From positions 133,273-197,272 of the forward strand of contig CAIOTC010000020.1 of NCBI GenBank assembly GCA_903861205.1: 64,000 nt of DNA, in the 5' to 3' direction. The position numbers and the translations under genes were made by a program. The stretch is from an uncultured bacterium. Its GTDB lineage: Bacteria > Patescibacteriota > Minisyncoccia > Phycocordibacterales > DATDWN01. Under the pieces are notes generated by a model. The model worked only from the letters and a program-made list of their open reading frames with translations. It did not search any database and was not told the DNA's origin. Below are positions 13,529 through 51,912 of the stretch, piece by piece (position 1 is the first letter of the stretch; each line of letters begins with the position of its first letter).

Positions 13529-14566
13529 TCAAATTCTAAACTCCACAACATCACCATCCTTGACCACATACTCCTTCCCTTCCGTTCTCACAAGCCCTTT
13601 TTCGCGGGCCTTCGCGTAGGAGCCGGCAGAGAGCAGTTTGTCCCATTCGATCACTTCGGCACGAATAAATTTGTCGCGGAAGTCGGTGTGAATGGCCATG
13701 CCAGCCACGGGCGCAGTGCTATCGCGAACAATCGTCCAAGCGCGCGACTCGTCCTCACCGGTCGTGAAATATGTCATCAGGTTCAAAGTCTCGTACGCTT
13801 TTTTGATAAGATCGTCAAAACCTTTTTCAAAAATCGGATCAACTTCGACGTACGGCCCGGGAATTCCCGCCTCGTCGGTGGGCAAATTTTCTTTCACTTC
13901 GGTCAAGTTTTTGGCCGCTGCTTCTGAAGCGTTGAGCACATACAAAATTGGCTTCATGCTCAAAAGTTGCAAAAGTTTTACGTATTCGATTTCCTTTTCG
14001 TCCAAACTAGCAAGAACTGTTCTTGCTAGTTTACTGTCCTCTAAAACTTTTTGGATTTTGGCCAGTGCCTCACCCTCTTCGACCGCTTCTTTTTTGTGAG
14101 ATTTGATATCCTTTTGCAGACCGGCGCGGCGTTTTTCCACCGTCTGCAAGTCCGCTAAAATAAGTTCAAGGTTTATGACCTCAATATCGGAGAGCGGATC
14201 GATTTTATTGTGCACGTGAATGATATCTTTGTCCTCGAAAATCCGCACCACCTCAGCGATGGCATCCACCTCACGAATATTCTGCAAAAATTTATTGCCG
14301 AGCCCCTCACCCATCGATGCGCCCTTGACCAGCCCCGCGATGTCGACAAACTCCACCACGGCCGGAATGGTTTTGGCCGACTTGCTGAACTCCGACAATT
14401 TCCACAGTCGATCGTCCGGCACCGGCACAATCCCGACCGACGGATCAATCGTGCAAAAAGGATAATTCTCCGCCGGCACGGCTTTTTTTGTCAGCGCATT
14501 AAAGAGCGTCGACTTGCCGACGTTCGGGAGGCCCACGATTCCTATACTTAGAGCGGAAGACGTCAT
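13529..14566 (-). CDS. ychF: ribosome-binding ATPase YchF (Obg-like)
   Basis: GIVGLPNVGKSTLFNALT G1 motif; TGS-like C-terminus DGDVVEFRI. Confidence 0.92.
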   Translation of the reverse strand: MTSSALSIGIVGLPNVGKSTLFNALTKKAVPAENYPFCTIDPSVGIVPVPDDRLWKLSEFSKSAKTIPAVVEFVDIAGLVKGASMGEGLGNKFLQNIREVDAIAEVVRIFEDKDIIHVHNKIDPLSDIEVINLELILADLQTVEKRRAGLQKDIKSHKKEAVEEGEALAKIQKVLEDSKLARTVLASLDEKEIEYVKLLQLLSMKPILYVLNASEAAAKNLTEVKENLPTDEAGIPGPYVEVDPIFEKGFDDLIKKAYETLNLMTYFTTGEDESRAWTIVRDSTAPVAGMAIHTDFRDKFIRAEVIEWDKLLSAGSYAKAREKGLVRTEGKEYVVKDGDVVEFRI

Positions 14567-16259
14567 TGTTTTTGTTTAAATTATCGTGTTGTGTAGCGTC
14601 CGAGCCATAGCTATATTCAGGACAGAAGAAGACATAAATTTCGCTTAGATTTATTAGACCGTACACTTGCAAGTCATTGGTGCCAGCCAGCACTTTGTTA
14701 ATAACTTGTCTAATAATGGCCTGTTTTGCTTTAAAATTCAAGCCCTTGAGTTTTTGTAATGCTTCCCCTGCAAACATTTTAACCTCGTCTTCGTTCGGTA
14801 ACAGCACATCATCCTTTGTTACGGCTTCCAAATGAGCTTTGTTTATTTGATCTTCAAATGAACGAATTTTTTCTCGCAAGGGTTTTACATATTCTTCAAA
14901 CTTCTCAAGTGTGATAACTTCCTGAGCATATGCTTTGGCAAAGCGGTCCTCTTGCGATCGCAATTTTACGATTTCTTTTTGCGTCAGATCGGTATCAATT
15001 GACATTTTGTTCAGCACATTATTTCCGCGAGTATTTTTCCATCGCTCGATTTGCTCAAGCAGCAAAGTCGGTGAACTCATAACCTCTTTCATTCTTTCCC
15101 ATACAGCCTCGTCGGCAATTCTGGCGTTGATTCCTGGTTGTTTGCATGTCGGAGGAAATGGAAATGTATGGACACGATTGGTGCATCTGTAATAGAGGTG
15201 TTTGCCTTTCTGCACACCTTCCCCTGCCCTTCTGCCACCACAGACACACCAAATCATGCCAGCCAAGAGATATTCGTTTACTTTGTTTCTGCCAAGAGTC
15301 TCAAAATTCTTTTTCAATCGCAATCCAGCCCGTATAAACAAATCTTTGTCTTCGATAATCGCAGGGACTGTTATCGGGTACCATTCAGTTTTTGGTCTCA
15401 TTTTCCTGCTAGTCTTTTTTATTTTCCTGTACTTTTCAAATTTTTTCGGATTTTCTGGAACTACCGCATATGATGCTCCCCAGTATGTCGTGCCGATAAA
15501 AACCTCGTGTCTTAACAATGTGCTGAGAGTGCTTGTACTCCAAACACCTTTAAGACTTTTTCTTGGTTTTATACCAGTTTTTTGCAACTCTCTGACAACA
15601 CCCCTGACAGTCAATCCATCATCAGCAACCATTTTAAATATATTCTTTATAACATTCGCTTCATATTCGTTGATTTCGTAATGACCGACAACATACTCTG
15701 GAGTTCCGCGTTTTCCTTTGTTTGGAATGTAGTTATAGCCGTATGGAGCTTCGCTGGTCAGGACATGGCCATTTTTAACTCTGCTAATTTTTCCTAATCG
15801 AAATCTTTCTTTGATCTTCATGCGTTCATACTCAGCAAAAACACCTCTCATTTTATACATGATGACATCCTCGTCATTTTTTGGTGGAGGTATAGTAACA
15901 AAAAGTACAGGAATCTCCAGCTCCGATAATTCTTCTATTATCAGTTCTTGCCAAGCACCTCGTCTTGCTAATCGATCTGGGTCATAGGTAAGCACGGCAT
16001 CCCAAATTCTCTTTTTTGCATCAATTCGTAACTGATCAAGATCTGGCCGATACAGTATGTCCCCGCTCCATCCCTCGTCTTTGTATGTTTTAACAATTTC
16101 AAAACCGTGTTCTTTGGCATAAGAATTTACTTCTGCTAGTTGGACCTCAATTGTCTGTTGGTCCTCCTGATTTGAGGTTGAGACCCTTGCATACAAGGCT
16201 ACGAATTTGATGTTTTTTTGTGTTAATTCAATCATGGTTTTGTTGTTATATTTTAGCAA
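14499..16259 (-). CDS. large serine recombinase / integrase (resolvase domain + recombinase domain + zinc ribbon); C-terminus overlaps the ychF 5' end by about 68 nt
   Basis: ALYARVSTSNQ catalytic Ser motif; CVCGGRR...YYRCTNR zinc ribbon; long coiled-coil C-terminus. Confidence 0.85.
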   Translation of the reverse strand: MLKYNNKTMIELTQKNIKFVALYARVSTSNQEDQQTIEVQLAEVNSYAKEHGFEIVKTYKDEGWSGDILYRPDLDQLRIDAKKRIWDAVLTYDPDRLARRGAWQELIIEELSELEIPVLFVTIPPPKNDEDVIMYKMRGVFAEYERMKIKERFRLGKISRVKNGHVLTSEAPYGYNYIPNKGKRGTPEYVVGHYEINEYEANVIKNIFKMVADDGLTVRGVVRELQKTGIKPRKSLKGVWSTSTLSTLLRHEVFIGTTYWGASYAVVPENPKKFEKYRKIKKTSRKMRPKTEWYPITVPAIIEDKDLFIRAGLRLKKNFETLGRNKVNEYLLAGMIWCVCGGRRAGEGVQKGKHLYYRCTNRVHTFPFPPTCKQPGINARIADEAVWERMKEVMSSPTLLLEQIERWKNTRGNNVLNKMSIDTDLTQKEIVKLRSQEDRFAKAYAQEVITLEKFEEYVKPLREKIRSFEDQINKAHLEAVTKDDVLLPNEDEVKMFAGEALQKLKGLNFKAKQAIIRQVINKVLAGTNDLQVYGLINLSEIYVFFCPEYSYGSDATQHDNLNKNNDVFRSKYRNRGPPERRQVDAL

Positions 16260-39881: not shown

Positions 39882-41123
39882 TTACAAAAACAGCAAATTA
39901 CGATCCACTTCGTCGGCTTCGGTGCCTTTGACTTTGCGCTTCAACGCTTTGTGAGTGGAAGCGAGGTAAACAACGCGCTTGCCGAATTTGTCTTCAAGCG
40001 AGTCGATCTGTTTGTGGATTGTTTCGAACTTTCGCGCCTTGTCCGTTTCGCCAAACAAATCCGCCTGCGAGACAGACTCCGGGGCAAGCTCCTGCAAAGT
40101 GACACCAGCTGTCCGGTACAAAACGCCGGGTCGGTGCATTTTGGAAAAATATTTGCGTGCCAAAGAAATCAGAGTTTCCGGAGCATTTGTCGGCGATGAA
40201 AGAACGGCCGAAAAAGCGTCGTACCTGAAATTTTGGGTTTTGAGAAAAAAAGAAATTTTGCGCGGAACCAGTTTATAATGCCGAGCCTTGGCGCAAGCTT
40301 CCTCGATATGTTTCGAAAGTTGTGAAAGCAAAAAATTTTTGTCGTTTGTTGGCGGATGAAATGTCCGTGTTTTTTGAACCGATGAATAAACGGTTTTCGG
40401 CTCCGGATCGATTTCCAAAACGTAAACGCCGTTGAGCTCCAACCAAATGATTTCGTACGGCTTGGAAAGATTTTCTTTGACCCATGAAATATTTTTTCCA
40501 ACGAAGTCCTGGGCCGTGACAATCCCCCTACTTTTCAAAAATTTGGAAGTTTGCGGACCGATGCCCCAGATTTTTTCGATCGGCGTTTTGGACAGAAATT
40601 CCGGCGCTGTCTTTTTTTCAATGACAGAAAGTCCGTCCGGCTTTTTCCATTTCGACGCCACCTTGGCCAAAACTTTTGTCGGCGCCAATCCCACCGAAAC
40701 CGACAAACCGAGCTCGCTGACCACTTCGCGTTTAATCCGCTCGGCGATTTGCAAATATGTCATACGAAGCGTTCGATCGAGACCCGTTAGCTCGGCAAAA
40801 CATTCGTCGATGCTATATTCCTCGACATCATCCGCGTATCGGCGAACGATCTGGAACATGTCGTTCGAATATTTTGCGTACGAAGCGTAATCCCCCGGCA
40901 AAATCAATACGTTGGGAAATTCTTTTTTCAATTTAAATATTGGCATTCCGCGCACAATACCGAGTGCCTTGGCTTCGTATGAAAGCGCCGAAACGATTCC
41001 GCGTTCCTCGCCTGTCACCACCGTTCGTCCGCGCAAAGCCGGATTTTTGGCCACCTCGCAAGCCACGAAAAAAGCGTCGCCATCCATGTGGAAAATAACT
41101 TTGTCTCGCGGGATAGTTTTCAT
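39882..41123 (-). CDS. dinB: DNA polymerase IV (Y-family)
   Basis: FHMDGDAFFVACE, SIDECFAELTG catalytic motifs. Confidence 0.9.
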   Translation of the reverse strand: MKTIPRDKVIFHMDGDAFFVACEVAKNPALRGRTVVTGEERGIVSALSYEAKALGIVRGMPIFKLKKEFPNVLILPGDYASYAKYSNDMFQIVRRYADDVEEYSIDECFAELTGLDRTLRMTYLQIAERIKREVVSELGLSVSVGLAPTKVLAKVASKWKKPDGLSVIEKKTAPEFLSKTPIEKIWGIGPQTSKFLKSRGIVTAQDFVGKNISWVKENLSKPYEIIWLELNGVYVLEIDPEPKTVYSSVQKTRTFHPPTNDKNFLLSQLSKHIEEACAKARHYKLVPRKISFFLKTQNFRYDAFSAVLSSPTNAPETLISLARKYFSKMHRPGVLYRTAGVTLQELAPESVSQADLFGETDKARKFETIHKQIDSLEDKFGKRVVYLASTHKALKRKVKGTEADEVDRNLLFL

Positions 41124-41202
41124 CCCTCTATTATAGGTGAACTATCGTTCACCGTCAAAACCTCTTCACTTTGTTTTAATATCCAATTCTCCCATTTGCA
41201 AA

Positions 41203-41228
41203 ATCATTCGCCGTTGATGGCGAATGAT
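41203..41228. promoter_or_regulatory. palindrome ATCATTCGCC-N6-GGCGAATGAT followed by T5 (copy 1)
   Basis: Same palindrome flanks the ArsR-family gene at both ends. Confidence 0.4.
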
Positions 41229-41251
41229 TTTTGATTTAATTTTATTGATTT

Positions 41252-41515
41252 TTATTTTTTCCAGCGTTCGAGCATCGGAATTCGGCTAGTATAGAACCAT
41301 GCCATGAATCGGCCGTAGCCCATTTCACGCAATTTCTTTTTGCAAAATTCTTGCATTTGCGGCGCTGTGCAATCCGTCCAAGTAAACGCGCCGTTTTGAT
41401 AACAATAACTGCAATACATCGTCGATTTACTTCCGTCGGCGTTCGTTCCCCCGCCGGCCGGATCTTTTTCCAAAGGCATGTCACAGCTTTGGCAATTTTT
41501 GTATGTTTTTTCCAT
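41252..41515 (-). CDS. putative zinc-ribbon domain protein
   Basis: CQSCDMPL...YCSYCYQNGAF. Confidence 0.6.
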   Translation of the reverse strand: MEKTYKNCQSCDMPLEKDPAGGGTNADGSKSTMYCSYCYQNGAFTWTDCTAPQMQEFCKKKLREMGYGRFMAWFYTSRIPMLERWKK

Positions 41516-41552
41516 ACTATTATTTATTAGTTGCTAATTACTAACAATAATT

Positions 41553-42116
41553 TTACCTCGTCTCGTAACCCTGCACAAGCTCGCCGATTTCCATATTTTT
41601 TTCGTCCAAATGAACCCAGATGCTTTTCCCGAGCGACGGTTGAACAGCAAAACTCTCGCCTGGATTTCTGTCAGCGTAGTTAACCACCGCTACGCCTTTT
41701 TGAATTTCGATATTTTGCGGAGCGATTCTGTCGCCGACAAACATGGCGTTTGTCCCTTTGTACACACCGCCTTTATTTATTGCCTCAACCACGTAAAAAA
41801 ATGTTCCGCTGCCACCAGAGTTCTCGGTCAAATACATCACTGCGTCACTCACTCCATCGCCATTTAGGTCGCCGTAAACCGGCTGGCCGAAAACCGCCAC
41901 ATTATCTTTTTCCGCTTTGCCGTTTACCAGCCTAAAATATTTTCCGGCAACATTGTAAGTGATATTGAGCGGATCGTTTTTGACCGTTTTCGTTTTGTCA
42001 TATTTCAAAATAAAATTGACCACATTCCCAACCCACAATTTCTGCGTGGCTAAAAGTCCGAGCCCGATGATTATCAAAACCAAAAGCACGATTTGAAGCG
42101 TTTTGTTGTTTGTCAT
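41553..42116 (-). CDS. hypothetical membrane-anchored protein
   Basis: N-terminal TM, soluble beta-rich domain. Confidence 0.45.
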   Translation of the reverse strand: MTNNKTLQIVLLVLIIIGLGLLATQKLWVGNVVNFILKYDKTKTVKNDPLNITYNVAGKYFRLVNGKAEKDNVAVFGQPVYGDLNGDGVSDAVMYLTENSGGSGTFFYVVEAINKGGVYKGTNAMFVGDRIAPQNIEIQKGVAVVNYADRNPGESFAVQPSLGKSIWVHLDEKNMEIGELVQGYETR

Positions 42117-42299
42117 GCGAGTATTATATCACATCCAAACCGCAACCATCGTGAGTAAAATTTTTCAAATATTCATCGCAGAAATTTTCTCTTTCGTCGC
42201 CTTTCAAAAAGTCCGGAGCAAAAACTTTTATTTTGTAAGGCATTATGGTCAGTTTGGTTTTGCTTCCGTCAAATTCAACTCCAACGACGACTTCTCGTA

Positions 42300-43030
42300 C
42301 CCTGTCGAGGCCTGATTCTCTCGGTGCGGCCTGCATTAATCCCCACCACGACGATTCTGGCCGGCGTGCACGGCTCCTACAACGCCGTCTGGGTGAAGGG
42401 CGTTTACGGGGAAGATACGTTCTACTATGGCCGCGGCGCGGGATCGCGGCCCACCGGTGTAGCGGTGGCGAGCGACCTGATGCGGGTGGCGCGCGAGATT
42501 CGCAACGGCAGCCCGCAGCGCGTCTCGCCGTTCGCGCACGAGCGGCTGGGCGAATACAAGCCCGTCCCGGTGACGGTGCAGCGGCGCGGCCGCCGGCCCG
42601 GCAACGCGCGCGAGCTGCGCAACGCGGTGGCGCCTTCCCGGCCGCTGCACACCTGTGCCGGACAATCACACCGGCCTCGCGGCAAGCGGCCTGATTTCAG
42701 TAGTTTAGAATGTGGAATCGCGGTTGCATCACAGGCCGCAACGGCGAGCCAGCCGCGCGCGATACGCTCGTCGGTGCGGCTGGTGACCGGGTAAGACGAG
42801 GCCTCCCCGCGCGTGCCGTCGGCGCGGCTGTATCGCACGGTCGCCGTGAAGGTGCGGTGGCGGGCTTGATATCGCGGTGCACGATGCCGCGGCCAAGCCG
42901 CACCTGGCGCCGTCAGCGATCCGGCTGCCCGGCGGGCGCAGCGACGGGTTGTTGGTGAAAGCCAGGTCGGTATTCGAGCTCGCCGCCAGGCTTGGGCGAG
43001 GGTGGCGTCGTCCGCCATTACAGCCCACTC
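42300..43030. other. approx. 0.7-kb foreign DNA segment with about 70 % GC embedded in a 40 % GC genome
   Basis: Abrupt composition shift; long spurious ORFs on both strands typical of high-GC DNA. Confidence 0.7.
42324..42500 (+). pseudogene. C-terminal catalytic-domain fragment of a homoserine dehydrogenase from a high-GC donor (70 % GC)
   Basis: ILAGVHGSYNAVWVKGVYGEDTFYYGRGAGSRPTGVAVASDLMRVAREI matches the HSD FYGRGAG..PTA.AV..D region; no ACT domain follows. Confidence 0.45.
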
Positions 43031-43186
43031 ACTACCCGCCCATATTCCATTGCCAAAGTATACGCTCTTTGTTTGTAATGAAGAACATAAGTCCACCGGC
43101 TGCTGCGCAGAAGCAGAAACAACAACGCAGAAAGTAAGGCCAGCCCGCAAGAATAGTGATGTGCACATGTAATAGTTCTCCACTAG

Positions 43187-44047
43187 CTAATTGGATAGAG
43201 TATCCATATTGAACGAACACGCCGTATTTTGAATGTTGTCTGGTAGTAGGGTAAACACTTGTCCGTTGGTGCGAGCAGCTGCCGTGTCATGAGCTTTGAT
43301 TCTGTCGGTGGTATTAAGCATCTGTGCTAGCACTTGTCTCCAAATTCCCTGGTTACGTTTTCCCAGATAGTCTAAGCACTCAATTGAGTCGATCTCTGCT
43401 ACACCCGCATCAGTTGCCTGTTGATCAGTCTGCGAAAGTAACGCATGTTGGATAGCCACGGCCTGCTCTTTCAGTGCCTCTCGGTGACGAGCAGAATCCG
43501 GCGCCGAAAAGATAATCAGTCGCTGAACATCATCCCTCACGCCATCACCGTCTGAGTCTATACCGGCAATGGTCGCTTTTCCCGCCACGCCAGGATCGGG
43601 TGGAAGCACGACTGGAATGGTCGTCGGTGCCAAGGCAGCAAACTGAAGGACTGGCGACAACACTCGCTTCAATTGTCCTGGAAAGGCGGCGGACACTTGA
43701 AAGTTGAAGGAGGCCGGCTGAGCCTCGTTGAGCGTGAGGACAGCTGTGAAGACCTTATCCCCAGCCTTCACATCCCCTGCTTTCCCGTTATCCCCCATCG
43801 TGGCGACAATGGTCTGTACGCCGGCTGAGTTAAGCCGAAGCAGATTAACGCCCGTAGGGATAGCAGACGGCGTGCCGGAAAGATCCACGGTGAACGTCAC
43901 TTGAGTCGGCGTGTTAACCACGACAAGACCGGGCGTTGCGATTGGCGCAGCAATCGTGGGCGGATTTTGCCCATACAGCAGAATCCCGCCCAGCACGAGG
44001 CAAGCGACAAGACCGCACCCGAAGAATAGAACAGATTTGTATTTCAT
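43187..44047 (-). CDS. hypothetical secreted protein (signal peptide; about 55 % GC)
   Basis: MKYKSVLFFGCGLVACLVLGG signal/TM; composition differs from the host. Confidence 0.5.
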   Translation of the reverse strand: MKYKSVLFFGCGLVACLVLGGILLYGQNPPTIAAPIATPGLVVVNTPTQVTFTVDLSGTPSAIPTGVNLLRLNSAGVQTIVATMGDNGKAGDVKAGDKVFTAVLTLNEAQPASFNFQVSAAFPGQLKRVLSPVLQFAALAPTTIPVVLPPDPGVAGKATIAGIDSDGDGVRDDVQRLIIFSAPDSARHREALKEQAVAIQHALLSQTDQQATDAGVAEIDSIECLDYLGKRNQGIWRQVLAQMLNTTDRIKAHDTAAARTNGQVFTLLPDNIQNTACSFNMDTLSN

Positions 44048-44051
44048 ATTC

Positions 44052-44327
44052 TTAAGGAGTAAATGCCCGTTGCCGGGCTGCTACCGCGACCGCGGTAAGC
44101 ATGGTTAGTAATAAAACAATGGACGACGGTTCCGGCACCGTTGTTATCGTGGCGTCATCCATTACAAATGAGTTGCCTACGTCCGGAGCTCCCGTAATCA
44201 TAACACTGGAGATTCCGTTTGCGAAATCCACAGACAAAAACTCGTTCGGGGTGCCGCCAGTGTCGGATGATGTGAAGTTGCTGTCGAACGCCGAGACACA
44301 TGACACAGTCAAGCAAGCCAACGCCAC
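44052..44327 (-). CDS. PEP-CTERM sorting-signal protein (possibly 5'-truncated; GTG start, no good signal peptide)
   Basis: C-terminus TVPEPSSIVLLLTMLTAVAVAARQR = PEP motif + TM + basic tail. Confidence 0.45.
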   Translation of the reverse strand: MALACLTVSCVSAFDSNFTSSDTGGTPNEFLSVDFANGISSVMITGAPDVGNSFVMDDATITTVPEPSSIVLLLTMLTAVAVAARQRAFTP

Positions 44328-44508
44328 AATGAAAAACGCCAGGAAGGCTATGGGAAAGCTGAATAATGTTCAGCAGGTCGCCGTTCTCGCCGGCCCAGGT
44401 CTCATGGTTGCCGGCTTCGTCGCCGGTTCAATGTCAGCCAAAGTGACTAAACCGGAGGATCTGCCATAGTCCAGGCCGTCCCAACCGCCCCGCGCCCGTC
44501 ACCAGACG

Positions 44509-44575
44509 GACCCCGCGGGGCTTTTTCAATTTTAAAAAAACCCGCCCTGCGACAGGTTCTGTCAAAGCGGGCGGT
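44509..44575. terminator. convergent terminator pair: ccccgcgggg+TTTTT (plus strand) and cccgccctgcgacaggttctgtcaaagcgggcgg preceded by A7 (minus strand)
   Basis: GC-rich hairpins with a U-tract on each strand downstream of 44592..45203. Confidence 0.5.
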
Positions 44576-44591
44576 CAATTATTTATAGGTG

Positions 44592-45203
44592 TTACAACCC
44601 AAATTTTTTCAGTCGTGAACGAATAGCGCCGGGGTTGCGGCCGAACATAACAGAAAGTTCCTTTATTGTCTTACTTTTCTCAATTCCTAGTTTTTCCAAC
44701 TCAATATCCTCCTCACCCGTCCATGGTTTGTAAGCGTTTTGATACTTCGCTCGTTGCTTTTCCAAAATTTCAAAAAATTTTTTAGGTAGAAACGTATTCA
44801 TAATTTTAATATTGCCTTCCAATATTATAGGAGTCATGCCGCGAATTTCGTCGGCAAAAATACAGTCAGGAATAGGGTTGTAAAGAAAAATTTTTTTATT
44901 CAGCAAAAAAGCGTTATGGATCTCCAGAAAAGTTGCGCCTCCGATATAATTCTGAATCCCTTTCTTTTCTAAATTTAAAACCAAAATCGCATCATGTCGA
45001 GAAATTATCTCGTAATCTTTTTTGAGCATTTCCTTTTTCCAATTTTCACTTTCCTCTTTACTTTTATTTTTCATTTCCTCTTCCATTCCCGGGGAATCAT
45101 AACCGTTCGGCATAGTTAGTTTATGCCCCATGGATTCAAGCTCCGGAACAATTTCCGGTATTTTGTGGTAATGATATTTGCTGGCACAAATAAAAATTTT
45201 CAT
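44592..45203 (-). CDS. nucleoside 2-deoxyribosyltransferase-like (Rossmann) domain protein with C-terminal HTH-like tail
   Basis: IGGATFLEIHNAF resembles the NDT DSGTxFExG motif; C-terminal TIKELSVMFGRNPGAIRSRLKKFG. Confidence 0.4.
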   Translation of the reverse strand: MKIFICASKYHYHKIPEIVPELESMGHKLTMPNGYDSPGMEEEMKNKSKEESENWKKEMLKKDYEIISRHDAILVLNLEKKGIQNYIGGATFLEIHNAFLLNKKIFLYNPIPDCIFADEIRGMTPIILEGNIKIMNTFLPKKFFEILEKQRAKYQNAYKPWTGEEDIELEKLGIEKSKTIKELSVMFGRNPGAIRSRLKKFGL

Positions 45204-45267
45204 AAATATATTTTATCACACCTGGATTAAAGGTATCTGACTACGTTTTCCGAGGTGTTCATTAATT

Positions 45268-45984
45268 TTAAAACATCAGACTGGATCTGTGCAAAAAATT
45301 AATATTATAAAAGATTTCAAGAAAAGATATGAACGATGTGATATGTGATTTTATTTGTTCTCTTGAAATTTTCGGACCTACTACGGATTTTTCAAATAGT
45401 TTTGGAAAATCTTCTATAAACCCCGGGTGTAATTTATCAAATTCAAACATCCCCATTTGTCCACAAATTTCCAAAAATACTCCGGCAACCCCGACAGAAT
45501 CAAGTGTGGTTCTTTTATCTAATTTTAAATTTTTTACATATTTATCATACTTTGGCATAACTTCATCAAACGCCCATTTCATATAACCATCCAGATTTTT
45601 CTCAGCATATTCAAAATGTTGCTTGAACATTTTTTCTTGTTCTGTAAGTTTTGATTCATCCACATTTTCTTCCAATTCTCCGTCTTTTACACCTTCAAAA
45701 AATTTATCTTGAGGCGAAGCACCTTTTAAAATTTTCTGGGGAAAAGCATTCCACGCATCATTAAAAAGCATCATAGCTTTTTCAAAATCTTTTTCGTTTA
45801 TTTCCGCCGGCAACTTATTCATCATAAACTGAAAATAATCTTTTGAAATAGAGCTGGTTGGTTTATCAAAATTAAAAATAAAATCTTTCAGCCATTCTAC
45901 CGAAACACCTTTTATTTTAATTTTACTTAAAAAAACCGCCAAATCTTTCTCAACTTTTTTAGGATTTAATTTTTCAAATTTCAT
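45268..45984 (-). CDS. hypothetical protein
   Basis: About 238-aa ORF, no recognisable motif. Confidence 0.4.
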   Translation of the reverse strand: MKFEKLNPKKVEKDLAVFLSKIKIKGVSVEWLKDFIFNFDKPTSSISKDYFQFMMNKLPAEINEKDFEKAMMLFNDAWNAFPQKILKGASPQDKFFEGVKDGELEENVDESKLTEQEKMFKQHFEYAEKNLDGYMKWAFDEVMPKYDKYVKNLKLDKRTTLDSVGVAGVFLEICGQMGMFEFDKLHPGFIEDFPKLFEKSVVGPKISREQIKSHITSFISFLEIFYNINFLHRSSLMF

Positions 45985-46135
45985 ATTTAGACAATTTTTT
46001 CTATCCAATCATCCCCCGCCAAATTCTCAATCATTTCCGTCCCCAAATCATCCAGAATCCCCGCATCCGTAAATGCACCCCTCACCGCCCGCATTTTGTA
46101 TTTGGTTTCAGGCATATTGGCATAAATCATACATT

Positions 46136-46447
46136 TTAATCATCAAGCTCACTATCTGTAAACTGGCTTTTGATTACCGCTTTTCTATATTTTAAAATTT
46201 CTAACTCTTTTTTATATTCAGAATTTTTGTTTTCCTCCATTGTTATCATATTTTCCAAAGCTAAAATCGAATATTTAAAATCCTCTTTTAGATTTTCTTT
46301 TATATCATCCATACTTAAAGATCTATTTTCAACTTTTAGTTTTGCGTTTAAGATTTCAAGTTCTTCATCAGACTCCTTGATTTCCCGATCCTTGTTGATA
46401 ATTTCTTTTTCAGTGTCATCAATAAATTGTTGTTTGATATTTTTCAT
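46136..46447 (-). CDS. hypothetical coiled-coil protein
   Basis: 103-aa, Lys/Glu-rich heptads. Confidence 0.35.
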   Translation of the reverse strand: MKNIKQQFIDDTEKEIINKDREIKESDEELEILNAKLKVENRSLSMDDIKENLKEDFKYSILALENMITMEENKNSEYKKELEILKYRKAVIKSQFTDSELDD

Positions 46448-46480
46448 GTATTTAAAATTAATAATTTATCATTGATATTT

Positions 46481-47572
46481 TTATTTTCCTGATTTTCTTC
46501 GGTTGCAATCCTTGCACAACATCTGACAATTTTCGGAAATCGTTTTTCCACCCTCGTGCCATGGTGTTATGTGATCCGCTTCCATTTCTCCTATTTCAAA
46601 ATGTTCTCTGCATTTTACACAAATTCCTTTTTGTTTTTCATATGCTTCCCTCTTTTGGTTTGGAGTAAAGTCACGAATTGAAAGATATTTTTCCTGTCTC
46701 GTTAAAACATAAGGATAAATACCGGATTTTTTAGTCACATCTTCGTCCTGCATTAATTTAATAATTTCTTTTTCAAGTTTCTTTAGATCAAGTTTCTTGT
46801 CCTTGAATTGGTTGTATAGTTCACCCCAATTCACACCCGCCATTTCCCTTCGATAATTTACAAACATTTTCCGTACCCACGCAATTACATTTTGAAAGTA
46901 TTGCCATAGTTCGTCAGAGTTTTTATTGTGCTGATGTTTTGCCATGTAGTCGGCCACATTACCATTATTGATCCACAATAGTGCGGTCTCCAAATATTCT
47001 TGCCTGATTGGTGAGCCGGTCACTAATTGCCCGCCATCACTGGCCAATAGGTATGCCGCGCAGTTTGATTTACTAAATTTGAGCTTTGCGTCAGAAAGCC
47101 ACGGACCAGTATAGACTGCATTCAAAAGCTCCTGTGGTGTAAGCTTTTCACCTGCCGTATTAATCACTTCAAACCAGTCAATTCTCTCTTTATCAGTACC
47201 ATCACAAAAATAGATCATCAATTCGTAATCCAAAATCAGATTCTGTTCTTCTTTTGTGAGATTGTGAAAAAAACGATCGTGTATGGAAAAGTCGCCGTTG
47301 ACATACTGACAAATACTTAGAGTGCGTTGCTGACCATCGAGGAGCTCATAACTTCCGGAACTGTTTTCTATCCAATACATAACATTGAGTGGAAACTTAT
47401 GACTCACAGTCTTTATTACGGCATTGCGTTGCTCCGGTTTGTAGACAAATTCGCGCTGATATTTTGGTCGGATATCAAGCTTGCCTTTGTAGGCGACGAC
47501 ACCCTCCTCATCACTATCTTTGTAGCCAGCAAATACCTCACGAACAGTAATTTTGTGTAGGTTAATTTTCAT
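46481..47572 (-). CDS. DUF262 (ParB-like, DGQQR) + HNH endonuclease fusion; GmrSD-like type IV restriction-type nuclease
   Basis: SYELLDGQQRTLSI; C-terminal EADHITPWHEGGKTISENCQMLCKDCNRRK. Confidence 0.75.
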   Translation of the reverse strand: MKINLHKITVREVFAGYKDSDEEGVVAYKGKLDIRPKYQREFVYKPEQRNAVIKTVSHKFPLNVMYWIENSSGSYELLDGQQRTLSICQYVNGDFSIHDRFFHNLTKEEQNLILDYELMIYFCDGTDKERIDWFEVINTAGEKLTPQELLNAVYTGPWLSDAKLKFSKSNCAAYLLASDGGQLVTGSPIRQEYLETALLWINNGNVADYMAKHQHNKNSDELWQYFQNVIAWVRKMFVNYRREMAGVNWGELYNQFKDKKLDLKKLEKEIIKLMQDEDVTKKSGIYPYVLTRQEKYLSIRDFTPNQKREAYEKQKGICVKCREHFEIGEMEADHITPWHEGGKTISENCQMLCKDCNRRKSGK

Positions 47573-48126
47573 TAGTTTCCCTTATGCAAATCCTCTTCTT
47601 CGTAATAGTACGATTGCTCAATGCCCTTCATGTAAACTTCGCGATCGTCTATTTTGTCAGTCAAAGAGCCGCGCAGAAGTTCGCGGATTTCCAAACTGTT
47701 AATGGGACTGCGTTGCATGGCGTTCAGATAATCCTGTTTGTCAACTTTGGCCCAATCGACGCACTTCTTCAGATTCTTTTTCAAAATCAAATCCAACCAA
47801 ATCCGCATGCTTCGGCCGTTGCCCTCCATAAAAGGATGTGCGATGTTCATTTCCACGTATTTGACCACTATCTCTTCAAAGGTATGCTCGGGCATTTTCT
47901 CTACCTTAGCCAAACTTTCCACCAGATATAAATGAGAGGCAAAGCGAAAACCGCCCTTGCTCAAATCTTTATCGCGAATTTCTCCAGCAAAGCCATACAG
48001 ACCGCCAAAGAGATGGGTATGGATCTGTTGCAAGCCCCTGGTGGTGCCGACTTCAAAACTATCGATCTCCCGACTGCCAAAAAGTTTTATAGCTCGCTCT
48101 TTACTGATTGCATCAATATTTTCCAT
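47572..48126 (-). CDS. Fic/Doc family protein (AMPylation-type Fic domain)
   Basis: [12 protein letters not shown] = HPFx(D/E)GNGR Fic motif. Confidence 0.85.
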
Positions 48127-48166
48127 AGTTTAATTATACCATATTTACACCTCCTCTGCCACTTCG

Positions 48167-48198
48167 CGAACAGTAATTTTGTGTGGGTTGATTTTCAT
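48167..48198 (-). repeat. duplicate of the 5' end (first 12 codons) of the DUF262-HNH gene, giving a 17-codon dead-end ORF upstream of fic
   Basis: cgaacagtaattttgtgtGggttGattttcat vs cgaacagtaattttgtgtAggttAattttcat at 47541-47572. Confidence 0.7.
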
Positions 48199-48204
48199 GT
48201 TATT

Positions 48205-48720
48205 TTATTTCACAATCTTAACTAGGTCATTTTGATCTTTTACAGATTTCAAAATACCAAATAAAACATCTAAATATTTCTTAATTTCTTTATATTCATT
48301 ACCATAAATCATTCGCATTTTCCCAAAAATATAGTCATACCTGATATCTATAAAGTCTTCTATCCTTATTTCTGTATCTTTTGTAGTTTCCATTATATAT
48401 TGAGTATCACTTTTAGTAATTTTTTTAATTCCTATTTTCAACAATTCATTGTCACCCAATTATTTTTTAATATTTAATAAATTATGAGACAAACTTGTTA
48501 GCTTCTTTTTCAGATCGTTCTCATTTAAAAACGATCCCAACATAACAACTCTTGATTTCAAAAATAATTCAACATTGTAAGAAAGTAGGATATAGATTGA
48601 TCTTATAAAAGCGGGGTCTGTTTCCTGATTATCATATAGATAATCTTGAAGAAATGTTAAGCCTGTAGATGATCCTGTTGTTAGCCGAAAAGCTATTTTA
48701 TATTTTTCTTCATTACTCAT
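48205..48720 (-). pseudogene. about 170-codon AT-rich reading frame interrupted by one in-frame TAA (annotated ORFs 48460..48720 and 48205..48459)
   Basis: Both ORFs share a frame and abut with no gap; the second uses a TTG start right after the stop. Confidence 0.3.
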
Positions 48721-48724
48721 AAAA

Positions 48725-49792
48725 TTATTTTTTTACTTTCTTATTTCGTATTAAAATTCTTGCGAACGGATGTTTACCTAATACAGTTTCATCTTTACCA
48801 CCACCGTTCAAAAAACCCAACAATTTAAACTGCTCTGGATTATACTTATCAATAAAGGTTTTTGGAACTGCGATTGCCCCGTCATAATCTAATGGTATTT
48901 CTGCAACCTTTGAAACCTCAATAATATCTTGGTAGTCATACTTCGGATATTCTTTAGTTGTATATTTTTTATAAAGTATTAGTTTTTCATGACGCTTTGA
49001 AGTATCAAGATTTGTAAACCAAACTATGCTACCCATACTAAAAAACTTCGTGCCCTTTTCAATTTTTATTCTTGACTCTGTCTCAATATCATAATCATCA
49101 GGAACCTGAAACCACTTTGTGCCACCATTATCATAACCAAGCCACAACTTATTTTCTTGGATAAGTTTGAAAGTTTCTTTGTATGTGATAGCGTTCTGGC
49201 TACCTAAAATCAAAAACTTTTTATCATATTCCACCAACTGCGCGACATATTCCCGAAACAAAGAAAATGGTGGATTTGTCACCACAATGTCAGCCTGTTT
49301 TAGCAGTTCTATACTTTCTTTACTTCTAAAGTCCCCTTCACCCTCCAATGGAGTCCACTCATTATTTTTATTCGCCTTGAGTTGTTCGGCAATATCACGC
49401 AAGTCAAATGCGCCGTCGCCATCCATATCATCCACCTCACTCACAATGAATTTGTTCGCGGTTACTTTAGGACGACCTTTGGGCGTATCTAATACCTTGT
49501 CGTCGCCGAATAGTCCGAGTTGTGTGTTGGCAATGGGAGATGGTTTGTAGCTAGTAGCGATAAGTTTTTTTAATCCGAGAGCGTTGAATTTTGAAGCGAA
49601 GTATTTGAAAAAATTACTCTCAAATGGGTCATCACAGTTGCAATACACCACCTTGCCGCGAAATTGTTCTTTGTAATGTTTTAGCTCCTTTTCAATATCA
49701 ACAAGCTGGGTATAAAACTCATCTTTCTTTGCAACGTTTGCTTTGTGCAGGTTGTTATTTAATGATTTCTTTTCCATAAATTTCATGTCCAA
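48725..49792 (-). CDS. adenine-specific DNA methyltransferase (NPPF motif; EcoRI-methylase-like family), orphan
   Basis: DEFYTQL, VVTNPPFS (motif IV), DYDGAIAVPKTF. Confidence 0.6.
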   Translation of the reverse strand: MDMKFMEKKSLNNNLHKANVAKKDEFYTQLVDIEKELKHYKEQFRGKVVYCNCDDPFESNFFKYFASKFNALGLKKLIATSYKPSPIANTQLGLFGDDKVLDTPKGRPKVTANKFIVSEVDDMDGDGAFDLRDIAEQLKANKNNEWTPLEGEGDFRSKESIELLKQADIVVTNPPFSLFREYVAQLVEYDKKFLILGSQNAITYKETFKLIQENKLWLGYDNGGTKWFQVPDDYDIETESRIKIEKGTKFFSMGSIVWFTNLDTSKRHEKLILYKKYTTKEYPKYDYQDIIEVSKVAEIPLDYDGAIAVPKTFIDKYNPEQFKLLGFLNGGGKDETVLGKHPFARILIRNKKVKK

Positions 49793-50306: not shown

Positions 50307-50315
50307 TTTCGTATT

Positions 50316-50342
50316 CCCCTTTCCGCCCAGAACTCTACCACT
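50316..50342 (-). promoter_or_regulatory. conserved 27-nt leader AGTGGTAGAGTTCTGGGCGGAAAGGGG upstream of the 50010..50306 gene
   Basis: Identical copy at 51412-51438 upstream of the next Cys-rich gene; GGAAAGGGG may act as an RBS. Confidence 0.45.
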
Positions 50343-51407: not shown

Positions 51408-51411
51408 ACGT

Positions 51412-51438
51412 CCCCTTTCCGCCCAGAACTCTACCACT
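51412..51438 (-). promoter_or_regulatory. conserved 27-nt leader AGTGGTAGAGTTCTGGGCGGAAAGGGG upstream of the 50964..51407 gene
   Basis: Second copy, ending 4 nt before ATGAATTGC. Confidence 0.45.
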
Positions 51439-51515: not shown

Positions 51516-51539
51516 TCATTCGCCTTGGACGGCGAATGA
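51516..51539. promoter_or_regulatory. palindrome TCATTCGCC-N6-GGCGAATGA just downstream of the ArsR-family gene stop
   Basis: Copy 2. Confidence 0.4.
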
Positions 51540-51826: not shown

Positions 51827-51852
51827 TTAATATAACATCATTCGCCGTCTAC
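51827..51852. promoter_or_regulatory. palindrome ATCATTCGCC-N4-GGCGAATGAT immediately upstream of the ArsR-family gene start (candidate operator)
   Basis: Copy 3; 5 nt from the start codon. Confidence 0.45.
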
Positions 51853-51912
51853 GGCGAATGATGTTTGTGGGGGAAAATTGTCTGTCACTTGTCACCTGCC
51901 ATCTGCGATCTA

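What the first reader, a model, noticed from the sequence alone, without database searches (positions are those of the whole stretch)
42120..44590. Foreign or chimeric block: 70 % GC segment with a homoserine-dehydrogenase fragment, then 55 % GC secreted and PEP-CTERM-tail genes; possible HGT from a host or an assembly chimera
At about 42300-43030 GC rises abruptly to about 70 %. The plus-strand translation carries the homoserine dehydrogenase catalytic-domain motif ...FYYGRGAGSRPTGVAVASDLMRVAREI, but no ACT domain follows, so it is a gene fragment. The flanking low-GC sequence at 42124-42330 still encodes an in-frame host-like C-terminal peptide on the minus strand (...LTIMPYKIKVFAPDFLKGDERENFCDEYLKNFTHDGCGLDVI), as if a native gene had been disrupted. 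Next come a 286-aa secreted protein (about 55 % GC) and a short ORF ending in a textbook PEP-CTERM sorting signal (VPEPSSIVLLLTMLTAVAVAARQR), which belongs to exosortase systems of Gram-negative bacteria. That ORF lacks a proper start and signal peptide, a plus-strand ORF overlaps it, and a plus-strand terminator follows. High-GC actinobacterial-type DNA inside a putative episymbiont genome could reflect host-to-symbiont transfer. It could equally be a metagenome mis-assembly.
Basis: partly seen in the sequence, partly recalled or inferred. Interest (0 to 1): 0.65.

Follow-up and report, generated by a model that had tools for sequence, protein, structure and literature searches.

The report
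Foreign DNA patchwork in Parcubacteria chromosome
A 2-kb stretch of a tiny candidate-phyla-radiation (CPR) bacterium's chromosome is a real, non-chimeric patchwork of broken gene pieces from unrelated bacteria that replaced part of a native gene; it is most likely a repair or DNA-uptake scar, not a new system.

Summary
GC jumps from about 42% to about 70% at 42309 and stays above background until about 44527. No other 300-bp window in the 64 kb exceeds 57% GC.

The block is not an assembly chimera. Nine contigs from other samples and assemblers (ENA per-sample assemblies, megahit, Logan) are 99.6-100% identical to the window and span both junctions.

The anatomy is:
- A native CapA-like gene reduced to its last 59 codons.
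- A 282-bp internal piece of a homoserine dehydrogenase gene with sharp breakpoints. Its closest named relatives are Bryobacteraceae (Acidobacteriota), not Actinobacteria.
- 428 bp of unassignable 70%-GC DNA.
- A 1345-bp slice of a conserved three-gene PEP-CTERM cassette. Only the middle 286-aa secreted protein is intact.
- About 165 bp of uncertain origin ending in a terminator.

The host is a Parcubacteria-type Patescibacterium. Thirty-nine related genomes lack the block at their DinB loci.

The best explanation is a deletion repaired by capturing several unrelated foreign DNA fragments, probably DNA taken up from the environment and joined by illegitimate recombination. The result is largely non-functional. 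The mechanism is inferred, not shown. This is genuine cross-phylum transfer of an ordinary kind and of modest interest.

The parts
42124..42308 (-). Native remnant: the last ~59 codons (C-terminal tail) of a CapA/PGA_cap-family gene. Gene callers extend it to a 70-aa ORF (42124-42336), which borrows an ATG from the antisense of the foreign homoserine dehydrogenase piece.
   Evidence: An exhaustive phmmer search finds five relatives besides the query's own 70-aa ORF. The two long ones align at their C-termini (P0213 residues 275-325 of 328; P0215 residues 266-310 of 323). Both have the PGA_cap domain at residues ~35-264. GC is 38%, like the host. The stop lies 8 bp from the start of the next native gene.
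42309..42590 (+). Piece A: a 282-bp internal fragment of a homoserine dehydrogenase (hom) gene, covering the end of the catalytic domain. There is no NAD-binding domain and no ACT domain. GC is 69%.
   Evidence: Pfam and NCBIfam hits. Protein identity is 81-89% to metagenomic homoserine dehydrogenases. Nucleotide identity is at most 83.7%. Across 79 blastn alignments to the 80 hom loci, homology starts at 42308-42313 in 74 and ends between 42562 and 42591. Named relatives are Bryobacteraceae.
42591..43018 (.). Piece B: 428 bp of 71%-GC DNA of unknown origin. A 23-bp AT-rich patch at 42694-42716 may mark an internal join. The 247/252-aa minus-strand ORF called across it is probably spurious here.
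   Evidence: None of the six frames hits Pfam, NCBIfam or PDB. There is no Rfam hit. It has no similarity to 736 kb around 80 hom relatives or to the cassette relatives. The codon-position GC phase changes along it.
43019..43183 (-). Piece C, part 1: the 5' end (signal peptide plus ~35 residues) of the third cassette gene, a large secreted protein in relatives. It is truncated after ~55 codons.
   Evidence: tblastn against L052_275 residues 25-60 gives 50% identity (E 2e-6), and against L010_757 residues 7-52 gives E 6e-4. Homology stops at ~43019.
43187..44047 (-). Piece C, part 2: an intact 286-aa gene of unknown function. It has a TM/signal helix, an Ig-like sandwich and a helical domain with an invariant DSDGDGVRDD loop. 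GC is 53%.
   Evidence: It is a full-length member of a ~280-290-aa family (121 hits, best non-self 65%; a partial hit reaches 75%). AF2 model pLDDT is 92.8. Only generic Ig-like folds match in PDB.
44052..44369 (-). Piece C, part 3: the 3' half of a ~200-aa PEP-CTERM protein gene (residues ~96-199). The signal peptide and N-terminal half are missing. An in-frame stop lies at 44370-44372.
   Evidence: PF07589, TIGR02595 and NF038129 positions 123-194 of 194. tblastn against L011_199 residues 96-182, L053_67 and L054_204. Stop position. A 9-bp in-frame deletion variant (44143-44151) occurs in contig L004.
44373..44527 (+). Piece D: ~155 bp at 60-63% GC. It holds the 3' end of a plus-strand reading frame (stop at 44467-44469) and a strong plus-strand intrinsic terminator hairpin (44487-44521) followed by a T-run. 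Origin is uncertain (foreign or native).
   Evidence: RNA fold -25.3 kcal/mol with a U-tail. There are no family or PDB hits apart from a weak NCBIfam TsaD match (E 0.03) that PDB phmmer did not support. There is no match in related loci.
44530..44575 (-). Native minus-strand intrinsic terminator of the intact 203-aa gene (44592-45203). It marks the resumption of host sequence.
   Evidence: The fold shows a CCGCCCGC...GCAGGGCGG hairpin followed by U7 on the minus strand. The 203-aa gene and this junction are present in L001, L002, L005 and L135.

Best explanation
This is a genuine chromosomal scar in a Parcubacteria-type Patescibacterium. It most likely comes from stratified lakes, but that is inferred from the sample names only.

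A deletion removed the first ~265 codons of a native CapA-like gene, together with whatever lay between that gene and the 203-aa gene. The gap was closed with about 2.05-2.2 kb of unrelated foreign DNA joined end to end. The pieces are:
- a 282-bp internal piece of an Acidobacteriota-like hom gene;
- about 430 bp of unidentified 70%-GC DNA;
- a 1.35-kb slice cut out of a three-gene PEP-CTERM cassette from a different, ~50-55% GC Gram-negative donor;
- possibly a fourth short piece.

The joins are abrupt and fall in the middle of genes. No recombinase, tRNA gene or flanking repeat is present. The most likely route is therefore non-homologous (illegitimate or end-joining type) capture of DNA fragments, plausibly taken up through the competence machinery that CPR bacteria carry.

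The insert has no coherent function. The homoserine dehydrogenase and PEP-CTERM pieces cannot make working proteins. Only the 286-aa secreted protein is intact, and its expression is unproven.

What is shown: the block is real, it has a foreign and mosaic origin, the genes are truncated, and the block is absent from relatives' DinB loci.

What is inferred: the uptake and joining mechanism, whether it was a single event, and the lack of function.
For: Real DNA: contigs L001, L002, L003, L005, L007, L008 and L135 are 99.98-100% identical to the window, and L004 is 99.6%. Together they cover 40310-45257 and cross every internal and external junction. An in-frame 9-bp indel variant inside the block in one sample shows that it segregates in a natural population.

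Foreign and mosaic:
- GC is 69-71% for pieces A and B and 52% for piece C, against 42% for the host.
- Piece A is 81-89% identical in protein to acidobacterial-type homoserine dehydrogenases, with homology switching on and off within 1-3 bp.
- Piece C reproduces the gene order [~200-aa PEP-CTERM protein]-[~285-aa protein]-[large secreted protein] seen in L010, L011/L012 and L054, and in part on the shorter contigs L052 and L053. In the window both outer genes are cut off.
- 736 kb around 80 hom relatives contains nothing like pieces B, C or D.

Native gene truncated.

No mobile-element hallmarks: there are no tRNA genes, no flanking direct or inverted repeats, and no recombinase in the scanned ORFs nearer than the serine recombinase at 14.5-16.3 kb.

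Host lineage and absence from relatives: DinB is at most 74% identical to Ca. Taylorbacteria, Zambryskibacteria and Minisyncoccia MAGs. None of their 39 loci contains any part of the block.

Competence: com genes are conserved across CPR and natural transformation has been shown in Saccharibacteria (PMC10633639). HGT into Patescibacteria from other phyla is documented (PMC12455944).
Against: - No donor sequence closer than ~84% nucleotide identity (piece A) or ~76% (piece C) was found. Junction microhomology cannot be examined, and the age and number of events are unknown.
- No 'empty-site' relative was recovered, because synteny upstream of the 187-aa gene is not conserved in the nearest genomes.
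- Piece B and piece D are unidentified. Piece D might be native.
- The block adjoins a low-GC defence-type island (GmrSD-HNH, Fic, EcoRI-type methyltransferase). In relatives the cassette sits beside mobile-element genes. Delivery by a mobile element is therefore not excluded.
- Competence genes were not looked for in this genome.
- Read-level coverage could not be inspected.
Confidence: 0.6

Rival explanations
1. The mosaic was assembled elsewhere, on a plasmid, ICE or phage, or in an intermediate bacterium that had collected fragments from earlier hosts. It then entered this genome as one piece, possibly together with the adjacent low-GC defence island, and the carrier element has since decayed.
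For: - The block abuts a 5-kb low-GC island with GmrSD-HNH, Fic and an EcoRI-type methyltransferase.
- In relatives the PEP-CTERM cassette lies next to Replic_Relax, integrase and transposase genes (L010) or next to ParA (L054).
- The C-terminal domain of the 286-aa family has distant relatives (33-37% identity) on two IMG/VR viral contigs.
Against: - There is no integrase, transposase, att-like repeat or tRNA at either edge.
- GC values of 70%, 52% and 35% sit side by side with no shared backbone.
- None of the contigs carrying relatives of piece A or piece C has the other pieces nearby.
- The plasmid database gives no hit.
- The 203-aa neighbour has no viral relatives.
Confidence: 0.22
2. 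Metagenome mis-assembly: reads from a high-GC organism and a PEP-CTERM-bearing organism were wrongly threaded into a CPR contig.
For: - The compositional steps are abrupt and made of gene fragments, which is what a chimera would look like in a single assembly.
- Two contigs end at the same base, 42276, 33 bp from the left junction.
Against: - Nine contigs from at least four BioSamples and three pipelines reproduce both outer junctions and all inner joins at 99.6-100% identity.
- No repeats are shared between the flanks that could mislead an assembler.
- The two contigs ending at 42276 may be two assemblies of one sample, and one end of L006 coincides with the 9-bp indel. The ends therefore fit population variation or coverage gaps.
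Confidence: 0.03
3. Host-to-symbiont transfer: the high-GC DNA comes from the bacterium on which this episymbiont lives, so the block marks the host.
For: - Cultivated Saccharibacteria live on Actinobacteria (PMC10633639).
- Physical contact would favour DNA transfer.
- Piece A is clearly from a high-GC bacterium.
Against: - The closest named relatives of piece A are Acidobacteriota (Bryobacteraceae), not Actinobacteria. Solved homoserine dehydrogenases score only 41-49 bits; from memory, entry 6dzs among them is mycobacterial.
- Piece C comes from a different, ~50-55% GC lineage, so at least one donor is not the host.
- The recipient is a Parcubacteria-type organism with no known host.
- Fragments of housekeeping genes give no benefit that would point to a special relationship.
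Confidence: 0.1
4. Adaptive acquisition: the insert persists because the intact 286-aa secreted Ig-like/helical protein is expressed and useful to the CPR cell, for example at its surface. The surrounding fragments are hitch-hiking debris.
For: - The 286-aa ORF is full-length and keeps all 15 invariant family residues, which are listed by their positions in the window protein.
- The model is confident.
- A sigma-70-like site with an extended -10 lies ~150 nt upstream (44225-44197).
- The block is identical across samples.
Against: - In donors the gene is translationally coupled to the PEP-CTERM gene, which is headless here, and no Shine-Dalgarno sequence precedes it.
- The unameliorated GC suggests the insert may simply be too young to have decayed.
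- Promoter-like hits are only about twice the shuffle expectation.
- No expression data are available.
Confidence: 0.12

Closest known systems
Illegitimate integration of foreign DNA in naturally transformable bacteria: homology-facilitated illegitimate recombination, short-patch double illegitimate recombination, and filler-DNA capture at double-strand-break repair (named from my own knowledge of the Acinetobacter/Streptococcus literature, not retrieved here)
   Same: - Short (~0.15-1.3 kb) pieces of unrelated DNA are joined at abrupt, mid-gene breakpoints.
- Resident sequence was lost at the same time.
- No site-specific recombination hallmarks are present.
- The recipient belongs to a radiation with conserved com genes, and competence has been shown in one member.
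   Different: - Junction microhomologies, an anchoring homologous arm and the competence genes of this genome were not testable.
- Several fragments from different phyla concatenated at one site is unusual for the laboratory examples I recall.
Cross-phylum HGT and genomic islands in Patescibacteria (PMC12455944)
   Same: - It is a compositionally deviant, lineage-specific insert in a CPR genome, next to a defence-gene island.
- The donors are phylogenetically distant bacteria.
   Different: - Reported events are whole genes or multi-gene islands detected by gene-tree or composition methods.
- Here most of the insert is gene fragments with no coding potential. Acidobacteriota do not appear among that paper's donor phyla (0 occurrences).
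PEP-CTERM/exosortase protein-sorting cassettes of Gram-negative bacteria (PF07589, TIGR02595, NF038129)
   Same: - The fragment has the C-terminal VPEP motif, a hydrophobic helix and a basic tail.
- The conserved neighbour gene order matches relatives.
   Different: - The signal peptide and N-terminal half are missing.
- The recipient is a CPR bacterium, and no exosortase was found or expected.
- The piece is a relic, not a working sorting substrate.
Homoserine dehydrogenase (hom/thrA; PF00742 plus ACT domain)
   Same: About 93 codons are 81-89% identical to the end of the catalytic domain of acidobacterial-type enzymes.
   Different: The NAD-binding domain, most of the catalytic domain and the ACT domain are absent. 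It cannot be an enzyme.

Membership tests
Homoserine dehydrogenase gene | Complete catalytic domain (PF00742, 173 positions) preceded by an NAD-binding domain | tested here: not met
   Only PF00742 positions 122-173 and NF004976 positions 265-329 of 430 are matched. DNA homology starts abruptly at 42309.
Homoserine dehydrogenase gene | C-terminal ACT regulatory domain, as in the closest relatives | tested here: not met
   Relatives continue '...QKRPYYLRFRV.DRPG...'. The window diverges at 42590 in all 8 relatives displayed base by base, and blastn homology ends at or before 42591 in all 79 alignments.
PEP-CTERM / exosortase substrate | C-terminal PEP motif followed by a hydrophobic helix and a basic cluster | tested here: met
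   VPEPSSIVLLLTMLTAVAVAARQR; PF07589 21.5 bits (cut-off 20.7); TIGR02595 22.4 bits (cut-off 16).
PEP-CTERM / exosortase substrate | N-terminal signal peptide and a full-length mature domain | tested here: not met
   It aligns only to residues ~96-199 of ~200-aa relatives. An in-frame stop lies at 44370-44372 and there is no homology upstream.
PEP-CTERM / exosortase substrate | Exosortase (EpsH/Xrt) encoded in the same genome | not tested
   Only 64 kb of the ~232-kb contig is available. About 30 window ORFs were scanned and none is an exosortase.
CapA / PGA_cap metallophosphatase (the truncated native gene) | PGA_cap catalytic domain (PF09587) | tested here: not met
   Full-length relatives P0213 and P0215 have PGA_cap at residues ~35-264. 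The window keeps only the equivalent of residues ~270-328.
Assembly chimera | Junctions unsupported outside the one assembly | tested here: not met
   Both outer junctions and all inner joins recur in 9 contigs from other samples and assemblers at 99.6-100% identity.
Integrase-mediated genomic island / prophage | Recombinase gene at an edge, tRNA or att direct repeats flanking the insert | tested here: not met
   There is no tRNA in the window and no flanking repeats around 42.3-44.6 kb or 42.3-49.8 kb. The nearest recombinase found is at 14.5-16.3 kb.
Integrase-mediated genomic island / prophage | Compositional deviation and absence from related genomes | tested here: met
   GC z-scores are +4.4 to +4.7 for pieces A and B. 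No part of the block occurs in 39 related DinB loci.
Illegitimate recombination of taken-up DNA | Abrupt mid-gene breakpoints joining unrelated sequences, with loss of resident DNA | tested here: met
   Homology to hom relatives begins and ends within 1-3 bp. The cassette genes are cut at ~43019 and ~44369. The CapA-like gene has lost ~265 codons.
Illegitimate recombination of taken-up DNA | Microhomology at junctions; competence (comEC/dprA) or end-joining genes in the genome | not testable with these tools
   No donor above 84% nucleotide identity is available, and the rest of the genome is not available. Competence in CPR is known only from the literature.

The most novel reading that the evidence does not exclude
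The block is a natural 'fossil' of multi-fragment environmental DNA capture. Several short, degraded DNA pieces from at least two other phyla were taken up by a Parcubacterium and ligated together into one chromosomal break. That would be in-situ evidence that uncultivated CPR bacteria import and illegitimately integrate random community DNA. It would also mean such scars could be mined across CPR genomes as a record of which organisms they live next to, here a Bryobacterales-like acidobacterium.
Probability: 0.35. Interest if true: 0.55.

Novelty: new member of a known kind. Interest (0 to 1): 0.3.

Why it matters
CPR/Patescibacteria genomes are small and streamlined, so 2 kb of mostly dead foreign DNA stands out. 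It shows that an abrupt GC anomaly in a CPR MAG need not be an assembly or binning artefact.

It also gives a concrete example of cross-phylum DNA entering such a genome as fragments rather than as useful genes. That fits the idea that these cells import community DNA through their competence machinery.

If similar scars are common, their donors could hint at the physical neighbours or hosts of uncultivated Parcubacteria. As a single case with unidentified exact donors, it is an anecdote, not a discovery of a new system.

Tried and rejected
- **Piece B as the continuation of hom (ACT domain).** tblastn with ACT-containing relatives found nothing beyond 42590. One gapped in-frame alignment was unconvincing. 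All 8 relatives displayed base by base diverge at the same position, and blastn homology ends at or before 42591 in all 79 alignments.
- **Piece B as a Ser/Thr kinase fragment or a short-chain dehydrogenase fragment.** These were suggested by the minus-frame 'GIVHRDIKP' and the plus-frame 'GGLDIAVHDAAA'. Neither has Pfam, NCBIfam or PDB support.
- **Piece B as DNA neighbouring hom in the donor.** There is no blastn hit in 736 kb around 80 hom relatives, and only scattered weak tblastx hits of the kind compositional bias produces.
- **Piece D as a tsaD fragment.** The NCBIfam match is E 0.03 only, and PDB phmmer finds nothing at E <= 10.
- **Plasmid origin.** A distant blastn of the whole block against PLSDB gave only 33-72-bp GC-rich chance matches.
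- **RNA genes in the block.** There is no Rfam hit even at E <= 1.
- **An empty-site relative.** In 39 GTDB species with DinB relatives, only two carry the 187-aa neighbour, and their upstream genes differ. The pre-insertion state could not be reconstructed.
- **Organism names through cluster look-up.** None were returned.
- **A word-index search for the native peptide.** It found only itself. The exhaustive phmmer search was needed.
- **A function for the 286-aa protein from structure.** Only generic Ig-like matches were found.
Full report

Yes. In 300-bp windows GC rises from 0.38-0.44 to 0.70-0.72 at about 42300, stays near 0.70 to about 43020, runs at 0.46-0.58 to about 44550, and then drops to 0.30-0.36. 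Outside 42000-44600 the 611 windows average 0.423 (sd 0.061) and none exceeds 0.567. The 70% stretch is therefore 4.4-4.7 sd out and unique in the 64 kb.

- The plus-strand ORF 42324-42794 matches only the end of the homoserine dehydrogenase catalytic domain (PF00742 positions 122-173 of 173; NF004976 positions 265-329 of 430).
- The ORF 44052-44327(-) carries a PEP-CTERM signal above the Pfam and TIGRFAM cut-offs. It aligns to the last 72 positions of the 194-position NF038129 family.

**2. Chimera or real DNA?**

Exact-protein look-ups for the 286-aa, 187-aa and 203-aa genes returned contigs from other samples and pipelines: ENA 'BUCK21-1' per-sample scaffolds from four BioSamples, megahit k141 contigs, and Logan assemblies of ERR4193245 and ERR4193360.

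blastn shows these contigs are 99.6-100% identical to the window:

| Contig | Window span |
|---|---|
| L001 | 40310-44857 |
| L002 | 41128-44833 |
| L003 | 41585-44565 |
| L007 | 40594-43728 |
| L008 | 41332-42772 |
| L005 | 43052-45257 |
| L135 | 43973-45253 |

Every junction, outer and inner, is therefore reproduced several times.

L004 carries an in-frame 9-bp deletion at 44143-44151, and L006 ends exactly there. The block is polymorphic within a natural population. L004 and L006 also both end at 42276; I could not resolve whether that is a second variant or a coverage gap.

The sample names suggest the stratified-lake dataset of Buck et al. (bioRxiv 10.1101/2020.11.12.379446). I could not confirm the accessions, so the habitat is an inference.

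**3. Anatomy**

*(a) 42124-42308(-), GC 38%.* The word-index search found only the peptide itself. An exhaustive phmmer search over 1.8 billion representatives found five relatives. The two long ones (P0213, 328 aa; P0215, 323 aa) align at their extreme C-termini and carry a PGA_cap (CapA) domain at residues ~35-264. The window therefore keeps only the tail of a CapA-like gene. The 70-aa ORF that gene callers report borrows its start codon from the antisense of the foreign DNA.

*(b) Piece A, 42309-42590(+).*
- Protein relatives are 81-89% identical. The best nucleotide identity is 83.7%.
- Across 79 blastn alignments to the 80 hom loci fetched from metagenomes, homology begins at 42308-42313 in 74 and ends between 42562 and 42591.
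- In base-by-base alignments of eight of these relatives the switch from about 82% identity to noise takes 1-3 bp at each end.
- Relatives continue into an ACT domain ('YYLRFRV.DRPG'). The window does not.
- The only named relatives are Bryobacteraceae MAG proteins, which are Acidobacteriota.
- Solved homoserine dehydrogenases score only 41-49 bits. From memory, one of them (6dzs) is mycobacterial.
- 'Actinobacterial-type' is therefore not supported.

*(c) Piece B, 42591-43018, GC 71%.*
- It gave nothing in any frame against Pfam, NCBIfam or PDB.
- It gave nothing in Rfam and nothing in the flanks of hom or cassette relatives.
- The codon-position GC phase changes along it, and a 23-bp AT-rich patch sits at 42694-42716. 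It may itself be composite.
- The 247/252-aa ORF called across it is the kind of long spurious frame that 70%-GC DNA produces.

*(d) Piece C, 43019-44369(-), GC 52%.*
- The 286-aa protein is a full-length member of a ~280-290-aa family (121 hits; best full-length non-self 65%, one partial hit 75%).
- In relatives it is preceded by a ~200-aa PEP-CTERM protein and followed by a large secreted protein (L010, L011/L012 and L054; in part on the shorter contigs L052 and L053).
- The window aligns to residues ~96-199 of the first gene, to all of the second, and to only the first ~55 residues of the third.
- An in-frame stop sits at 44370-44372.
- The cassette relatives have 50-56% GC. Some lie beside relaxase, integrase, transposase or ParA genes.

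*(e) Piece D, 44373-44527, GC ~63%.* It ends a plus-strand frame and carries a strong plus-strand terminator. Its origin is unresolved.

*(f) 44530-44575.* This is the minus-strand terminator of the intact native 203-aa gene.

**4. Host and surroundings**

- The window carries AlaRS, LeuRS, CysRS, DnaB, DinB and MacB/HlyD-type transporter genes.
- DinB is at most 74% identical to MAGs labelled Ca. Taylorbacteria, Zambryskibacteria, Minisyncoccia, Paceibacterota and Parcubacteria. The host is a Parcubacteria-type Patescibacterium.
- None of the 39 related loci contains any piece of the block. Only two carry the 187-aa neighbour, and their upstream genes differ, so no empty site could be reconstructed.
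- To the right of the block lies a 5-kb, 30-35% GC island with GmrSD-HNH, Fic and an EcoRI-type methyltransferase.
- The window has no tRNA genes, the insert has no flanking repeats, and no recombinase was found nearer than 14.5-16.3 kb.

**5. Mechanism**

Shown:
- a deletion of native DNA;
- replacement by at least three unrelated foreign pieces with abrupt mid-gene joins;
- at least two compositionally and phylogenetically distinct sources;
- no site-specific recombination hallmarks;
- persistence in a wild population.

Inferred: the pieces were free DNA fragments that were taken up and joined by illegitimate recombination or end-joining at a chromosomal break. This is plausible because com genes are conserved across CPR and natural transformation has been demonstrated in Saccharibacteria (PMC10633639). 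HGT into Patescibacteria from other phyla has also been reported (PMC12455944).

Delivery as a pre-assembled mosaic on a mobile element is the main rival. A host-derived origin could apply to at most one piece. The hom and PEP-CTERM fragments cannot be functional.

The 286-aa gene is intact and models confidently (pLDDT 92.8) as a TM helix, an Ig-like sandwich and a helical domain with an invariant DSDGDGVRDD loop. PDB fold matches are generic. It has lost its upstream coupled gene and has no evident ribosome-binding site. Only a consensus-level promoter-like site lies upstream.

**6. Comparison with known systems, and novelty**

This is not a homoserine dehydrogenase gene, a working PEP-CTERM substrate, an integrase-type island or a chimera; defining features of each were tested and not met. 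It behaves like the products of illegitimate integration of foreign DNA known from transformable bacteria, and it falls within the documented phenomenon of HGT into CPR genomes.

What is slightly unusual is the concatenation of several short, non-functional fragments from different phyla in a streamlined genome. I rate it a new member of a known kind, with interest about 0.3.

**7. Verdict**

- The chimera alternative is refuted.
- The 'actinobacterial/host' reading is not supported.
- The best explanation is a foreign-DNA capture scar: confidence 0.6 for the overall statement, about 0.95 that the block is real and foreign, and about 0.4-0.5 for the uptake and end-joining mechanism.

Noticed in passing
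window 9472-12417 (-): The 981-aa leucyl-tRNA synthetase carries a NUDIX hydrolase domain (residues 382-501) inserted right after the editing domain. This is an unusual domain combination and may be worth a separate look.
   Followed up: no
window 44592-49792: This is a low-GC (30-35%) island directly right of the block. It holds two unknown genes (203 and 246 aa), a GmrSD_N+HNH nuclease (46481-47572), a Fic/DOC protein (47572-48126) and an EcoRI-type adenine methyltransferase (48725-49792). It looks like a defence or variable island. One relative (L023) also has the methyltransferase and GmrSD genes upstream of DinB.
   Followed up: partly
window 47535-47572 and 48161-48198: The first 38 nt of the GmrSD-HNH gene (start codon included) are repeated at 89% identity 626 bp upstream. 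The two copies bracket the Fic gene, as if Fic had been inserted with duplication of the gene start, or a second truncated copy exists (family D5).
   Followed up: no
window 41204-41227, 51516-51539, 51838-51861 (weaker copy 40332-40365): A palindromic hairpin, CATTCGCCG-N6-CGGCGAATG, recurs in intergenic positions (D1/I1/I2/I19). It looks like a REP-like or shared terminator element of this genome.
   Followed up: no
window 50315-50342 and 51411-51438: An exact 28-nt direct repeat (TCCCCTTTCCGCCCAGAACTCTACCACT) occurs 1096 bp apart (D9). Its meaning is unknown.
   Followed up: no
window 14499-16259 (-): A 586-aa large serine recombinase (Resolvase + Recombinase + Zn_ribbon_recom). It suggests an integrated element elsewhere in the window.
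   Followed up: no
L010 3396-10849; L054 310-5807; L136, L137: The three-gene cassette (~200-aa PEP-CTERM protein, ~285-aa Ig-like/helical protein with invariant LPPDPG...GIDSDGDGVRDDVQR and two invariant Cys, then a large secreted protein) recurs in diverse bacteria. It often sits beside mobile-element genes: Replic_Relax, integrase and DDE transposase in L010, and ParA in L054. The C-terminal domain of the middle protein has 33-37% relatives on two IMG/VR viral contigs. The family has no Pfam annotation.
   Followed up: partly
window 44143-44151 (contig L004); contig ends at 42276 (L004, L006) and 44143 (L006): A 9-bp in-frame deletion variant inside the PEP-CTERM relic is present in one sample. 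Two contigs stop at the same base, 33 bp left of the hom junction. This could mark a second haplotype at the left junction.
   Followed up: partly
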